The notes under the pieces: model-generated
Told to the model about the DNA's origin: nothing
What the model saw: the letters and a program-made list of their open reading frames with translations, nothing else
The model's database searches: none
Program-made: the position numbers and the translations under genes
Shown: in pieces, positions 6,636 through 63,916 of the stretch
How the letters are laid out: each line of letters begins with the position of its first letter
Numbering within the stretch: the first letter of the stretch is position 1
DNA from: Escherichia coli
GTDB taxonomy: Bacteria; Pseudomonadota; Gammaproteobacteria; Enterobacterales; Enterobacteriaceae
Assembly (NCBI RefSeq): GCF_003334355.1
Contig: NZ_QOWP01000001.1
Direction: 5' to 3' (one strand)
DNA: 64,000 nt

Positions 6636-8066
<1,431 letters not shown>

Positions 8067-8249
8067 GCTCTGTCCCAGCGCCGCCTCCTCAGAAAAGAGT
8101 CGGCGCTGAAATTCTCCTTTCTTTCTGGAAAGCGCCTCGCATAATCTGAAGAAAACCAATGTAATACGCTCATCTGGATTGTTACCGGTAGATGCCCGGC
8201 GTATAGCTGATTCCATTATTCAACGCAGCGCCATATAAAGGGACAGATA

Positions 8250-8729
8250 ATGGAATCGCTCTCAGAGAGAACCTCAACAGGCTACCAGCAAATCCATGAC
8301 GGTATTATTCACCTGGTCGATAGCGCCCGGACGGAAACGGTACGTAGCGTTAACGCGCTGATGACCGCGACATACTGGGAAATTGGCCGACGAATTGTCG
8401 AATTTGAACAAGGTGGCGAGGCCAGGGCTGCGTATGGTGCGCAGCTAATCAAGCGACAATCAAAGGATTTAAGTCTAAGGTATAAGCGTGGGTTCTCTGC
8501 AAAAAACTTACGCCAAATGAGGCTTTTTTACCTCTTTTTTCAACATGTTGAAATTCGCCAGACAGTGTCTGGCGAATTAACACCATTGGGAATTCCGCAG
8601 ACACCATCTGCAGAATTCCCATCGGCAAAGATTTGGCAGACGCTGTCTGCCAAATTGAGAGGCTGTTTGATATTTCCACAGCTTTTGTATTGCATCTCCT
8701 ATTTTCGGTTTGTATATTCATGCAAATAA
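8250..8729 (+). pseudogene. yhcG: Truncated YhcG-like (DUF1016 family) gene; N-terminal domain only
   Basis: The first ~100 aa (…YWEIGRRIVEFEQGG…NLRQMRLFYLFF…IRQTVSGEL) resemble the DUF1016/YhcG N-terminal region as I recall it. After that the reading frame runs through a palindrome array and AT-rich sequence with no nuclease-like C-terminal domain. The intact 159-aa ORF could still be translated. Confidence 0.55.
8552..8653. repeat. Three imperfect palindromes with a CAGAC..GTCTG core, centres about 39 bp apart
   Basis: aattcgccagacagtgtctggcgaatt (8552-8578), gggaattccgcagacaccatctgcagaattccc (8588-8620) and ttggcagacgctgtctgccaa (8633-8653), read directly from the sequence. Confidence 0.7.
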
Positions 8730-8745
8730 ACGAAGGAAAGTTGCC

Positions 8746-9051
8746 ATGATTTACATTGAACAGCTTGAATTAATCCATAAAAGTGGTGATGTGTTGTATC
8801 CAGTAAAAATAACCAGAAAATCATCAGGAAAAACTGCCTTCCACCTTGTTCCATTCGGCTTAAATAAGACTCACGACCTTCTAGAGGTGGAAGATGCTTC
8901 AGAAGCAATTCGGCTGGTGATTGATGAACGTCATTCCATTCGCTGCAGTACACTTACAGCAACTATTACGAATAAAAAGGGCAAGCGAATTAAGCGGACA
9001 GGTATATACAGTATCAAGGGTGTTAACATAAAAGAATACAACGTCAGGTAA
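8746..9051 (+). CDS. Hypothetical small protein (~101 aa), orphan, AT-rich
   Basis: ATG at 8746 is preceded by a GAAGGAAAG Shine-Dalgarno-like sequence about 7 nt upstream. The ORF (in frame with the list entry 8710..9051) ends with a basic tail (KKGKRIKRTG). I recognise no motif. A hairpin follows at 9053-9092. Confidence 0.4.
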   Translation: MIYIEQLELIHKSGDVLYPVKITRKSSGKTAFHLVPFGLNKTHDLLEVEDASEAIRLVIDERHSIRCSTLTATITNKKGKRIKRTGIYSIKGVNIKEYNVR

Positions 9052-9126
9052 TGGCACAGAGCGGTCCGTCAGTTCAGGTTTGGCTCTGTGCCAAAGATGG
9101 GTCAGGTCACACCTGATCTAATAAAT

Positions 9127-10459
<1,333 letters not shown>

Positions 10460-32181: not shown

Positions 32182-32400
32182 GCCGGATGCGGCGTGAACG
32201 CCCTATCCAGCCTACGGTTATGTTCCGGTTTGTAGGCCTGATAAGACGCACAGCGTCGCATCAGGCAACGGCTGTCGGATGCGGCGTAAACGCCTTATCC
32301 GACCTACGGTTATGTTCCGTTTGTAGGCCTGATAAGACGCACAGCGTCGCATCAGGCAACGGCTGCCGGATGCGGCGTGAACGCCCTATCCGACCTACGG
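32182..32400. repeat. REP/BIME array (repetitive extragenic palindromes) between tldD and yhdP
   Basis: Repeated units gccggatgcggcgtgaacgccctatcc...cctac and gtaggcctgataagacgcacagcgtcgcatcaggca, arranged in about three tandem ~98-bp units. Confidence 0.9.
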
Positions 32401-63438: not shown

Positions 63439-63558
63439 ATGCCTGGCAGTTCCCTACTCTCGCATGGGGAGACCCCACACTACCATCGGCGCTACGGCGT
63501 TTCACTTCTGAGTTCGGCATGGGGTCAGGTGGGACCACCGCGCTACTGCCGCCAGACA
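63439..63558 (-). rRNA. rrfF: 5S ribosomal RNA, distal copy (rrfF-like)
   Basis: The reverse complement matches E. coli 5S rRNA (UGCCUGGCGGCAGUAGCGCGGUGGUCCCACCUGACCCCAUGCCGAACUCAG...GGAACUGCCAGGCAU). Confidence 0.95.
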
Positions 63559-63595
63559 AATTCTTTTCTAATCTGCCGAACTTTAACCTAAAAAG

Positions 63596-63671
63596 TGGTG
63601 CTGATACCCAGAGTCGAACTGGGGACCTCACCCTTACCAAGGGTGCGCTCTACCAACTGAGCCATATCAGC
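63596..63671 (-). tRNA. thrV: tRNA-Thr (anticodon GGU)
   Basis: The reverse complement reads GCTGATATGGCTCAGTTGGTAGAGCGCACCCTTGGTAAGGGTGAGGTCCCCAGTTCGACTCTGGGTATCAGCACCA, a cloverleaf with a GGT anticodon and encoded CCA. Confidence 0.95.
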
Positions 63672-63683
63672 ACGCTAAATTTG

Positions 63684-63803
63684 ATGCCTGGCAGTTCCCT
63701 ACTCTCGCATGGGGAGACCCCACACTACCATCGGCGCTACGGCGTTTCACTTCTGAGTTCGGCATGGGGTCAGGTGGGACCACCGCGCTACTGCCGCCAG
63801 ACA
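63684..63803 (-). rRNA. rrfD: 5S ribosomal RNA, second copy
   Basis: Identical in sequence to the copy at 63439-63558. Confidence 0.95.
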
Positions 63804-63840
63804 AATTCTTTTCTAATCTGCCGAACTTTAACCTAAAAAG

Positions 63841-63916
63841 TGGTGCTGATACCCAGAGTCGAACTGGGGACCTCACCCTTACCAAGGGTGCGCTCTACCA
63901 ACTGAGCCATATCAGC
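63841..63916 (-). tRNA. thrV: tRNA-Thr (anticodon GGU), second copy
   Basis: Identical to the tRNA at 63596-63671; part of an exact 245-bp tandem unit. Confidence 0.9.

What the first reader, a model, noticed from the sequence alone, without database searches (positions are those of the whole stretch)
8067..9126. The gltD-to-nan interval is a compact ~1 kb replacement segment, not the gltF plus fimbrial cluster of the K-12 layout
From the gltD stop (8066) to the yhcH stop (9127) there is only about 1 kb. It holds a yhcG-like N-terminal fragment, a palindrome array and an AT-rich orphan ORF. As I recall the K-12 map, this interval there contains gltF, the yhcA/yhcD/yhcE/yhcF chaperone-usher cluster (interrupted by IS5) and full-length yhcG, about 8 kb in total. 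Everything else in the window is colinear with K-12, so this is the one clear strain-variable point. Either it is the ancestral 'empty' site, or it is a deletion scar with a short acquired insert. Variable points of this kind are where novel accessory functions tend to reside.
Basis: partly seen in the sequence, partly recalled or inferred. Interest (0 to 1): 0.6.

Follow-up and report, generated by a model that had tools for sequence, protein, structure and literature searches.

The report
Truncated yhcG with phage gene insert
Between gltD and the sialic-acid genes this E. coli carries a common allele (13% of complete genomes, including E. coli B) in which the candidate defence nuclease gene yhcG was cut at one of its internal DNA palindromes and its back two-thirds replaced by a small prophage-type gene; the allele is ordinary, but those palindromes turn out to be conserved inside yhcG genes across many bacterial phyla, which I did not find described.

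Summary
The 1,060 bp between gltD and nanQ/yhcH hold the first 406 nt of yhcG, three palindromes, and an AT-rich 101-codon ORF.

The site is not ancestral and empty. gltD-yhcG-nanQ is the old layout, found in several Enterobacteriaceae genera and in about 47% of E. coli. This allele (720 of 5,426 genomes, including REL606, HS and ATCC 8739) is derived. About 780 bp of yhcG, including the nuclease domain, were replaced by 470 bp of foreign DNA. The left junction lies inside the right arm of the third palindrome. The right junction lies in a CTAA microhomology next to the nanQ stop.

The insert is a prophage accessory ("moron") cassette. Its gene is under purifying selection (dN/dS about 0.15), sits beside the N gene in lambdoid prophages, and is wrongly named "transposase". 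Its confident predicted fold resembles an accessory domain of HNH and McrB-type restriction enzymes.

Unexpectedly, the palindromes (ATT-NNN-CAGAC-NNN-GTCTG-NNN-AAT) are conserved inside the YhcG/DUF1016 linker across phyla, with heavy compensatory covariation. Their function is unknown, and I found no description of them.

The parts
8067..8249 (+). gltD-yhcG intergenic region. It contains a hairpin after gltD (CAGCGCCG 8076-8083 / CGGCGCTG 8101-8108) and the conserved yhcG upstream region.
   Evidence: Identical to the same region in genomes with intact yhcG. An equivalent hairpin and upstream motifs are present in Citrobacter, Kluyvera, Superficieibacter and Pseudocitrobacter.
8250..8655 (+). 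yhcG' : the 5' 406 nt of the yhcG gene (DUF1016 N-terminal domain plus linker). The PD-(D/E)XK nuclease domain is lost. The open frame runs on into foreign DNA and stops at 8727-8729 (159 aa chimera).
   Evidence: 99.6% identical to L002 2834-3089. RefSeq annotates it as a pseudogene, 'DUF1016 N-terminal domain-containing protein, missing C-terminus'. Intact YhcG matches PADLOC PDC-S02 at E = 4e-136.
8552..8578 (.). Palindrome 1, AATTCGCCAGACA-G-TGTCTGGCGAATT (13-bp perfect arms); encodes IRQTVSGEL.
   Evidence: A 28-nt identical copy forms the junction of the empty allele.
8588..8620 (.). Palindrome 2, GGGAATTCCGCAGAC-ACC-ATCTGCAGAATTCCC (two mismatched pairs in this strain; the core is perfect in K-12); encodes IPQTPSAEF.
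8631..8655 (.). Palindrome 3, truncated: ATTTGGCAGAC-GCT-GTCTGCCAAAT. The intact gene has 15-bp arms. The left junction of the replacement lies after 8655, inside the right arm.
   Evidence: An independent IS1-associated junction lies in the left arm of the same palindrome in another strain.
8656..9125 (+). 470-bp AT-rich foreign segment that replaces about 780 bp of yhcG (nt 407 to the end, plus the downstream palindrome). The right junction falls in a CTAA microhomology between about 9117 and 9126.
   Evidence: No homology to the intact alleles. About 720 genomes carry it, at >=99% identity in 722, and none on plasmids. GC 0.39. No terminal inverted repeats at its edges.
8660..8745 (+). Conserved upstream leader of the cassette gene, with ribosome-binding site AAGGAAAG at 8733-8740. 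A promoter is possible but not shown.
   Evidence: Co-conserved with the ORF in the Yersinia and Enterobacter copies; the shared block is 8660/8661-9055/9064 at about 85% identity. The consensus promoter scan found none.
8746..9051 (+). 101-aa gene (WP_000639208.1; ECB_03080 in REL606), annotated 'transposase'. It is a prophage accessory protein of an uncharacterised family of roughly 100-aa proteins.
   Evidence: dN/dS 0.14-0.22 with third-position bias. Length conserved across 37 clusters. 40 representatives in the profile search. Prophage contexts. AlphaFold model pLDDT 93. Fold matches domains fused to HNH and McrB-like proteins. No Pfam, NCBIfam, PHROG, PADLOC or PDB match.
9043..9123 (.). 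Double-hairpin element (hairpin A 9052-9093, hairpin B 9098-9120) that also occurs at the ends of other accessory-gene units in prophages.
   Evidence: Folds at -37.6 kcal/mol, z = -5.3. 77-79% matches between convergent genes in an ST131 lambdoid prophage and an APEC O78 P2-like prophage, and in roughly 620 genomes overall. No Rfam match. No T-tract terminator by scan.
9127..9591 (-). nanQ (yhcH), the right-hand conserved flank. Homology to all other alleles resumes at or just before its stop codon.

Best explanation
This interval is a derived, partly decayed allele of an old accessory-gene slot between the convergent gltBD and nan operons. The ancestral content of the slot is yhcG, a DUF1016 / PD-(D/E)XK nuclease that PADLOC lists as the candidate anti-phage gene PDC-S02.

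Shown: in one E. coli lineage a single event removed yhcG from nt 407 to just before the nanQ stop (about 780 bp, including the whole nuclease domain). It put in 470 bp of AT-rich DNA of prophage type. That DNA consists of a conserved leader, a 101-codon gene and a double-hairpin element. The allele was then inherited vertically. It is now in 13% of complete genomes, including E. coli B, HS and ATCC 8739, and homologues are annotated in Shigella.

Inferred: the event was illegitimate recombination with phage DNA. The left junction is inside the right arm of a 33-nt perfect palindrome, a hairpin- or cruciform-prone and therefore fragile site. The right junction is in a 4-5 nt microhomology. There are no transposon ends and no recombinase.

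Inferred: the inserted gene now starts 17 nt after the stop of the chimeric yhcG' frame, so it can be transcribed from the yhcG promoter. It encodes a small beta-barrel-plus-helix protein. Its homologues sit on the opposite strand right next to the N antiterminator gene of lambdoid prophages. Its fold resembles an accessory domain fused to HNH and McrB-type (modification-dependent) restriction nucleases. I therefore infer a prophage-borne helper of defence or counter-defence that acts on or near DNA. That function is not shown.
For: - Allele structure and breakpoints.
- Census: 720 genomes with this allele, 947 empty, 3,671 with the yhcG 3' part, 1,120 with the K-12-type gltD-gltF junction.
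- Single origin: the insert is >=99% identical in 722 genomes and is always chromosomal.
- Ancestral state: yhcG lies between gltD and nanQ in Pseudocitrobacter, Citrobacter amalonaticus, C. koseri, Superficieibacter and E. whittamii, and directly after gltD in Kluyvera, C. gillenii and S. arizonae.
- YhcG = PDC-S02, E = 4e-136.
- Repeated independent decay of yhcG by IS1 and by IS629 plus a group II intron.
- The ORF is a real gene: dN/dS 0.14-0.22; length conserved at 101-102 aa.
- Prophage origin: it is 13-15 nt from the N gene on the opposite strand in lambdoid prophages, at a prophage edge in Enterobacter, and next to an integrase at icd in Yersinia.
- The shared DNA block starts at 8660/8661, within 5 nt of the junction.
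- The 3' hairpin element recurs in prophage variable regions.
- Fold: pLDDT 93; Foldseek probability 1.0 with TM 0.57-0.8 to domains in HNH endonucleases, McrB-like AAA+ proteins and a protein annotated as carrying a ScoMcrA-like head domain.
- A distant member overlaps the end of an HsdR-like gene and precedes a MADS-type methyltransferase.
- REL606 carries the allele.
Against: - No donor phage carrying the whole 470-bp segment contiguously was found. The ORF block and the hairpin element are shared with different sources, so the insert may have been assembled in more than one step.
- The causal role of the palindrome in the break rests on position only. Two independent junctions fall in a 33-nt target within a 1,128-nt gene.
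- The consensus scans found no promoter or terminator in the insert.
- Expression of the gene was not examined.
Confidence: 0.8

Rival explanations
1. The interval is the ancestral, never-occupied state of the site, and K-12 and other strains gained genes there later.
For: The interval is short. K-12's fimbrial island is indeed an addition found in only about 21% of genomes.
Against: The yhcG fragment is 99.6% identical to the intact gene and stops in the middle of a conserved palindrome and of the protein. Outgroup genera have full-length yhcG at this site. The real empty allele is a different 67-bp sequence.
Confidence: 0.02
2. The insert is the remnant of an insertion sequence, and the 101-aa ORF is a transposase or transposase fragment, as RefSeq names it.
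For: RefSeq and UniRef call it 'transposase'. A Shigella copy is named 'putative IS1 encoded protein'. A truncated copy lies 130 bp downstream of an IS110-family transposase gene on Klebsiella plasmids.
Against: It matches no transposase family in Pfam or NCBIfam. The insert has no terminal inverted repeats or target duplication at its edges. There is one copy per genome and none on plasmids in E. coli. The predicted fold is a small beta-barrel plus helix, not a DDE, HUH, serine or tyrosine recombinase fold. Its usual home is a fixed slot in prophages. The name looks like annotation carried over from neighbouring IS elements.
Confidence: 0.03
3. The palindromes are sites of a dedicated, site-specific process (hairpin-targeted insertion or excision, in the manner of integron attC sites or IS200/IS605-type hairpin recognition), and the cassette was placed at the foot of palindrome 3 by that process rather than by accident.
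For: All rearrangement junctions at this locus touch a palindrome. This allele reads ...GTCTGCCAAAT|. In the empty allele, identity switches from K-12-left-like to downstream-flank-like right after ...GTCTGGCGAAT|. K-12's 8.3-kb island is bracketed by two palindrome copies. An IS1 junction lies in the left arm of palindrome 3. The cassette has the same left edge in three genera.
Against: No recombinase or HUH-type gene is present at the locus. The Yersinia and Enterobacter copies of the cassette have no such palindrome at their edges. The palindromes lack attC features. The right junction shows only microhomology. The family is confined to this locus in E. coli.
Confidence: 0.1
4. The palindromes are merely a by-product of a repeated peptide motif (I-x-Q-T-x-S-A/G-x) in the YhcG linker and have no significance at the nucleic-acid level. 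The breakpoint position is a coincidence.
For: The motif is in frame in 127 of 128 cases. T and S are invariant, so some protein-level constraint is likely. Mismatches show no RNA-type wobble bias.
Against: With the same proteins and each gene's own codon usage, the longest arm has a median of 5 nt, against 12 observed. 56 of 77 genes exceed all 50 of their resamples. Three stem positions vary freely yet stay Watson-Crick paired, with 46-54 double-sided changes each, and 0 of 500 shuffles reach the observed covariation. The amino acids at positions 2 and 7-8 change together exactly as base-pairing dictates. Non-coding copies after the yhcG stop and after gltD keep the same form.
Confidence: 0.1

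Closest known systems
Strain-variable accessory-gene hotspots between conserved core genes in E. coli, with pseudogenisation of defence genes
   Same: The flanks are fixed (gltD, nanQ) and the content alternates (empty, yhcG, yhcG plus a chaperone-usher fimbrial island, truncated yhcG plus insert). yhcG has been hit repeatedly by IS elements. The resident gene is a candidate defence nuclease (PDC-S02).
   Different: The slot is tiny and old. yhcG is at this site in several genera, so it behaves more like a decaying resident gene than a recently arrived island. No integrase or tRNA is involved.
Phage 'morons': independently transcribed accessory genes inserted between conserved prophage genes (the concept is from my own knowledge of lambdoid phage genomics)
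   Same: The gene is small and AT-rich and sits on the strand opposite to the surrounding operon. It lies in a fixed slot right next to gene N in lambdoid prophages. It is followed here by a hairpin element that also ends other accessory units in prophages.
   Different: Here the unit is not in a prophage at all. It sits alone in a chromosomal gene, fused behind a truncated host ORF. Its promoter and terminator were not detected by consensus scans.
Accessory / 'head' domains of modification-dependent (type IV) restriction enzymes such as ScoMcrA and McrB-family proteins
   Same: The predicted fold of the 101-aa protein aligns with probability 1.0 and TM 0.57-0.8 to a domain present in HNH endonucleases, McrB-like AAA+ ATPases and a protein annotated as carrying a ScoMcrA-like N-terminal head domain.
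REP / BIME extragenic palindromes and Rickettsia palindromic elements (in-frame palindromic insertions)
   Same: They are short palindromes in tandem arrays with conserved cores and covarying arms. As with Rickettsia elements, they lie in frame inside a protein-coding gene.
   Different: They are not dispersed, with at most about 5 copies, all at this one locus in E. coli. They are tied to one gene family and one position in it across phyla. The sequence is unrelated to the REP consensus quoted in PMC7967276. No associated RAYT-type transposase is present.

Membership tests
YhcG / DUF1016 PD-(D/E)XK nuclease (PADLOC PDC-S02) | N-terminal DUF1016_N domain and linker | tested here: met
   8250-8655 is 99.6% identical to nt 1-406 of intact yhcG. 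RefSeq names it a DUF1016 N-terminal domain protein.
YhcG / DUF1016 PD-(D/E)XK nuclease (PADLOC PDC-S02) | C-terminal PD-(D/E)XK nuclease domain | tested here: not met
   Everything after nt 406 is replaced by unrelated DNA. It is a gene fragment, not a functional member.
Insertion sequence / transposase (the RefSeq name of the ORF) | Recognisable transposase catalytic domain | tested here: not met
   No Pfam or NCBIfam match for the protein or for any of 29 family members. The predicted fold is a small beta-barrel plus helix.
Insertion sequence / transposase (the RefSeq name of the ORF) | Terminal inverted repeats and target-site duplication at the element's ends; multiple copies | tested here: not met
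   No inverted repeats at 8656/9125. One copy per genome, and none on plasmids in E. coli.
Prophage accessory gene ('moron') | Homologues occupy a variable slot between conserved prophage genes | tested here: met
   13-15 nt from the N antiterminator gene, on the opposite strand, in lambdoid prophages. At a prophage edge in Enterobacter.
Prophage accessory gene ('moron') | Own promoter and terminator | tested here: inconclusive
   The consensus scans found neither. A conserved leader and a strongly folding double hairpin are present. Transcription data were not examined.
Prophage accessory gene ('moron') | Base composition different from the surroundings | tested here: met
   GC 0.39 against 0.50-0.60.
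Accessory (head-like) domain of type IV restriction enzymes (ScoMcrA, McrB-type, HNH fusions) | Structural similarity to the domain | tested here: met
   Foldseek against AFDB50: probability 1.0, TM 0.57-0.8 to the fused domains. The model has pLDDT 93. All of these are predicted structures.
Accessory (head-like) domain of type IV restriction enzymes (ScoMcrA, McrB-type, HNH fusions) | Sequence-profile membership, or a match to a solved structure | tested here: not met
REP / BIME extragenic palindromes | Extragenic location, many dispersed copies, REP consensus | tested here: not met
   The palindromes are mostly intragenic. There are at most 6 matching places per genome, and a palindrome can match on both strands. 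The sequence is different.
Intrinsic (rho-independent) terminator, for the palindromes | G+C-rich stem followed by a T-tract | tested here: inconclusive
   The simple scan finds none at 8000-9200 or at the empty-allele palindrome. The empty-allele copy is a 15-bp stem (-23 kcal/mol, z = -5.3) whose base is made of A/T runs, lying between two convergent operons.
Integron attC / gene cassette | Integrase nearby; attC architecture at the cassette end | tested here: not met
   No integrase is present in the locus annotation or ORF list. The palindromes are 25-33 nt perfect hairpins. Comparison with attC architecture is from my own knowledge and was not computed.

The most novel reading that the evidence does not exclude
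The palindromes are a functional nucleic-acid element built into YhcG/DUF1016 genes. They form an array of 1-5 hairpins (ATT-NNN-CAGAC-NNN-GTCTG-NNN-AAT, with an invariant GAC-N3-GTC core) that sits in frame in the interdomain linker. The array is conserved from Enterobacteriaceae to Acidobacteria, Cyanobacteria, Planctomycetes and Bacteroidetes, and its base-pairing overrides amino-acid choice. It could be a regulatory hairpin in the mRNA, a structured DNA site recognised by the nuclease itself or by a partner, or a recombination site that lets the N-terminal and nuclease modules be exchanged. As a side effect it would make the gene break there, which would explain this allele, the empty allele and the IS1 junction.
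Probability: 0.4. Interest if true: 0.75.

Novelty: new member of a known kind. Interest (0 to 1): 0.45.

Why it matters
The allele itself matters little. It is a common, vertically inherited variant that is already present, with a misleading annotation, in E. coli B, HS and ATCC 8739. Two by-products are worth more.

First, the ORF labelled 'transposase' is a real, selected prophage gene. It founds an unnamed family of roughly 100-aa proteins whose fold recurs in modification-dependent restriction enzymes. Because REL606 and BL21 carry it, it can be tested directly for a role in phage defence or anti-restriction.

Second, YhcG/DUF1016 is a widespread candidate defence nuclease with no known mechanism. 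A phylum-spanning, covarying hairpin array inside its coding sequence is an unusual and concrete handle on how the gene is regulated, recognised or rearranged.

Tried and rejected
- **Shallow structure model.** A first AlphaFold run on a shallow alignment gave pLDDT 44 and was discarded. Only the deeper alignment worked.
- **Family libraries for the ORF.** Pfam, NCBIfam, PHROGs, PADLOC and PDB sequence searches all returned nothing useful.
- **Fusion proteins.** The two sequence-detectable fusion proteins (P0049, P0058) have no recognisable partner domain.
- **RNA families.** Rfam found nothing in 7900-9300.
- **Promoters and terminators.** The scans found nothing in the interval or at the empty-allele palindrome.
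- **Strand test.** Looking for a G·U wobble bias to tell RNA from DNA structure gave 7 against 6 mismatches, which is uninformative.
- **Viral contigs.** The scan for YhcG relatives gave one locus only.
- **Internal similarity.** A weak direct similarity between palindrome 3 and the 3' hairpin element (79-85% over 13-14 nt) was judged to be chance.
- **Literature.** Searches for DUF1016, yhcG plus palindrome, PDC-S02 and ECB_03080 found no description of the palindromes or of the ORF. The library lacks most subscription journals, so this is not proof that they are new.
- **Rejected ideas.** The ancestral-empty-site idea and the transposase idea were considered and rejected (see the rival explanations).
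Full report
**1. The observation**

The window is E. coli. gltD ends at 8066, and nanQ (yhcH), on the minus strand, ends at 9127-9129. The interval is therefore 1,060 bp. It holds three things:

- An ORF at 8250-8729 whose first 406 nt are yhcG.
- Three palindromes at 8552-8578, 8588-8620 and 8631-8655, 39 nt apart.
- An ORF at 8746-9051 in a stretch of GC 0.39, against 0.50-0.60 on either side.

The palindrome array folds far better than shuffled sequence: z = -9.6 as DNA for this window, and z = -9.3 as RNA for the intact-gene array.

**2. The locus in the species**

Allele-specific probes against 5,426 complete genomes gave the following counts:

| Allele | Genomes | Share |
|---|---|---|
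| This allele | 720 | 13% |
| Empty (67 bp, a single palindrome; e.g. Nissle 1917, ATCC 25922) | 947 | 17% |
| 3' part of yhcG present | 3,671 | 68% |
| ...of which K-12-type gltD-gltF junction | 1,120 | 21% |
| ...leaving plain gltD-yhcG-nanQ (e.g. O157:H7), by subtraction | about 2,550 | about 47% |

Rarer forms have yhcG broken by IS1 or by IS629 plus a group II intron. A divergent yhcG allele has a different palindrome set.

This allele is in E. coli HS, ATCC 8739 and E. coli B REL606. In REL606 the ORF carries the old locus tag ECB_03080, a gene that PMC11101190 lists between yhcG and yhcH. Homologues of the ORF are also annotated in Shigella.

**3. Polarity**

yhcG lies between gltD and nanQ in Pseudocitrobacter, Citrobacter amalonaticus, C. 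koseri, Superficieibacter and Escherichia whittamii. It lies directly after gltD in Kluyvera, C. gillenii and Salmonella arizonae. These genera also share an upstream region. gltD-yhcG-nanQ is therefore the old state, and this allele, the empty allele and the K-12 island are all derived.

**4. Anatomy of the replacement**

Homology to intact yhcG runs to 8655 and resumes at about 9117-9126, next to the nanQ stop. About 780 bp of yhcG are gone, including the PD-(D/E)XK domain and a fourth palindrome that follows the stop codon. In their place are 470 bp of unrelated DNA.

- **Left junction.** In the intact gene the third palindrome is AAAGATTTGGCAGAC-GCT-GTCTGCCAAATCTTT, with 15-bp arms. Here it reads ...GTCTGCCAAAT|TGAG, so the left junction is inside the right arm.
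- **Right junction.** It falls in a CTAA shared by the insert and the old flank.
- **Insert edges.** The insert has no terminal inverted repeats.
- **Origin.** It is >=99% identical in 722 genomes, always chromosomal and single-copy. This points to one event followed by vertical descent.

I infer illegitimate recombination with foreign DNA at a hairpin-prone site. The inference rests on position, not on experiment.

**5. The insert**

DNA from 8660/8661 to 9055/9064 (leader plus ORF) is about 85% identical to loci in Yersinia canariae and Enterobacter cloacae. The left edge of that shared block is within 5 nt of the junction.

Evidence that the ORF is a real gene:

- Differences between genera fall mainly at third codon positions, and dN/dS is 0.14-0.22.
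- Its length is held at 101-102 aa in 37 clusters.
- A profile search of 1.84 billion representatives found 40 relatives. Nearly all are stand-alone proteins of about 100 aa.

Evidence for prophage origin:

- A 59%-identical form sits 15 nt from the lambdoid N antiterminator gene, on the opposite strand, in four metagenomic contigs.
- A Yersinia form, indexed in 160 blocks of the assembly collection, sits 13 nt from N in three of the four places shown. In all four it lies beside the cI/cII immunity region. Its neighbours include BstA/KilA-N, Lar and DUF4411 genes.
- In Enterobacter it is at the edge of a lambdoid prophage. In Yersinia it is beside an integrase at icd.
- From memory, the slot next to N is where lambda and P22 carry sieB. 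I did not test that comparison.

The last roughly 80 bp of the insert (9043-9123) fold into two strong hairpins (z = -5.3). At 77-79% identity they recur between convergent genes in prophage variable regions. Examples are the region next to the tail-fibre assembly gene of a P2-like prophage and a site in an ST131 lambdoid prophage. About 620 genomes carry such a copy.

The insert is therefore a mosaic of prophage accessory modules. No single donor with all 470 bp was found.

**6. What the 101-aa protein may be**

RefSeq calls it 'transposase'. Nothing supports that name:

- No Pfam, NCBIfam, PHROG or PADLOC family matches it or its relatives.
- It has no IS ends.
- A Shigella entry named 'putative IS1 encoded protein' suggests the name spread from neighbouring IS elements.

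In AFDB50 the fold matches, with probability 1.0 and TM 0.57-0.8, a domain inside three kinds of protein: HNH endonucleases, McrB-like AAA+ ATPases, and a protein annotated as carrying a ScoMcrA-like N-terminal head domain. The authors of the ScoMcrA structure describe that head domain as small, flexibly attached and of unknown function (PMC6224610).

One distant family member overlaps the end of an HsdR-like gene and precedes a MADS-type methyltransferase.

I infer a small accessory protein working with, or against, DNA-modification-dependent restriction. My confidence in that specific function is about 0.35.

In this window the gene starts 17 nt after the stop of the chimeric yhcG' frame and has a good ribosome-binding site. 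It could therefore be transcribed from the yhcG promoter. This was not tested.

**7. The palindromes: the unexpected part**

In E. coli the family is confined to this locus. There are three copies in the yhcG linker, one after the yhcG stop, and, in K-12-type and empty alleles, one right after gltD.

The empty allele is the K-12 left flank joined to the flank downstream of yhcG through one palindrome. K-12's 8.3-kb island is bracketed by two copies. In another strain an IS1 end abuts the left arm of palindrome 3. Every rearrangement junction seen at this locus except one IS629 insertion touches a palindrome.

I then fetched 80 YhcG loci, one per species, at 55-98% protein identity. They come from Gamma-, Beta- and Deltaproteobacteria, Acidobacteria, Cyanobacteria, Planctomycetes, Nitrospirae and Bacteroidetes. 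The results:

- **Position.** Of 115 perfect palindromes (arms >= 9) in 442 kb, 70 lie 200-400 nt into the gene. Other 100-nt bins hold 0-6, typically 1-2, summed over all loci. 66 of 80 genes have at least one, and some have up to four.
- **Form.** The form is constant: (A)ATT-NNN-CAGAC-NNN-GTCTG-NNN-AAT(T). The GAC-N3-GTC core is about 14-fold enriched in the linker and is in one reading frame in 127 of 128 cases.
- **Covariation.** The NNN triplets differ widely (CGC, GTG, CTC, TGG, TCG, TGC, TTC, CCG and others) but are always matched by their complement. Even changes in the core are compensated (GAGAC...GTCTC, TCGAC...GTCGA).
- **Formal count.** On 114 distinct instances anchored only on the core, 85% of cells pair, against 73% in shuffles (0 of 500) and 22-46% when partners are slid. 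Three stem positions show 46-54 double-sided changes each.
- **Codon null.** Keeping each protein and resampling synonymous codons gives a median longest arm of 5 nt against 12 observed. 56 of 77 genes exceed all 50 of their resamples.
- **Peptide.** The encoded peptide I-x-Q-T-x-S-[AG]-[EKQ] has residue 2 and residues 7-8 changing together exactly as base-pairing requires.
- **Distant relative.** A 39%-identical viral-contig homologue still has TCCAGAC-GCT-GTCTGGA.

The constraint is therefore on the nucleic acid. Stem mismatches show no wobble bias (7 G·T-type against 6 C·A-type), so RNA and DNA cannot be told apart.

I found no description of this in the searchable literature. That literature knows DUF1016 only as a predicted PD-(D/E)XK nuclease on mobile elements and in RM/BREX neighbourhoods, and PDC-S02 only as a survey category. 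The library is incomplete, so novelty is probable, not certain. An alternative without function is hairpin-templated self-correction in a tolerant linker, and I cannot exclude it.

**8. Verdict**

But the allele is common, old within its lineage, and already present in reference strains, so on its own it is ordinary.

Its value lies in two leads:

- A mis-annotated, selected prophage gene family with a restriction-enzyme-like accessory fold, testable at once in E. coli B.
- A phylum-wide covarying hairpin array inside a candidate defence nuclease gene. It also marks where this locus breaks.

Overall interest is 0.45. The palindrome reading, if functional, would deserve about 0.75.

Noticed in passing
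L021-L100 (80 YhcG loci), nt 200-400 of each gene; window 8552-8655: Conserved, covarying palindromes of the form ATT-NNN-CAGAC-NNN-GTCTG-NNN-AAT lie in frame in the interdomain linker of YhcG/DUF1016 genes across many phyla. The pairing goes far beyond what the peptide sequence would give. I found no description of them in the searchable literature.
   Followed up: yes
window 9043-9123; L006 4001-4081; L007 4001-4081: An element of about 80 bp with two hairpins recurs (77-79% identity, roughly 620 E. coli genomes) at the ends of different accessory-gene units in lambdoid and P2-like prophages, always between convergent genes. It has no Rfam match and is not a classical T-tract terminator.
   Followed up: partly
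L020 13440-13540: In strain PigCaeca_1 an IS1 end abuts the left arm of yhcG palindrome 3, and the DNA from just after gltD to that point is deleted. This is a second independent junction in the same 33-nt palindrome.
   Followed up: yes
L004 2499-2565; L003 3934-3962 and 12272-12297: The 'empty' gltD-nanQ allele (947 genomes) is one palindrome joining the K-12 left flank to the flank downstream of yhcG. K-12's gltF-yhcG island is bracketed by two palindrome copies. This suggests the empty allele arose by loss of the island between the palindromes.
   Followed up: partly
L025 3596-3691: Citrobacter gillenii has a second copy of the last 32 codons of gltD downstream of yhcG, so there yhcG is flanked by a direct repeat of the gltD 3' end.
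   Followed up: no
L101 1-2519; L102: A distant member of the 101-aa family (P0044) overlaps the stop of an HsdR-like helicase/endonuclease gene and precedes a MADS-type DNA methyltransferase, so it sits inside a restriction/defence operon.
   Followed up: partly
L021 2501-2629; L087 2501-2875; L029: yhcG carries premature stops or frameshifts in an E. coli-like GTDB species representative, in Salmonella arizonae and apparently in Kluyvera genomosp. 3. This fits frequent decay of the gene.
   Followed up: no
L005 6001-6253: A 5'-truncated, frameshifted copy of the 101-aa gene lies about 130 bp downstream of an IS110-family transposase gene on two Klebsiella plasmids. This may have contributed to the 'transposase' name.
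   Followed up: partly
window 8067-8249 (by homology to the K-12 yhcG upstream region): According to PMC7967276, in K-12 an antisense RNA (G0-10703) is transcribed divergently from yhcG and overlaps its 5' UTR by 128 bp. Whether it exists in this allele was not checked.
   Followed up: no
window 32235-32395 and 63441-63916: Rfam gathering-threshold hits elsewhere in the window: two adjacent naRNA4 (REP-derived) copies, and a tandem 5S rRNA-tRNA-5S rRNA-tRNA arrangement at the window's end. Both look like ordinary E. coli features.
   Followed up: no
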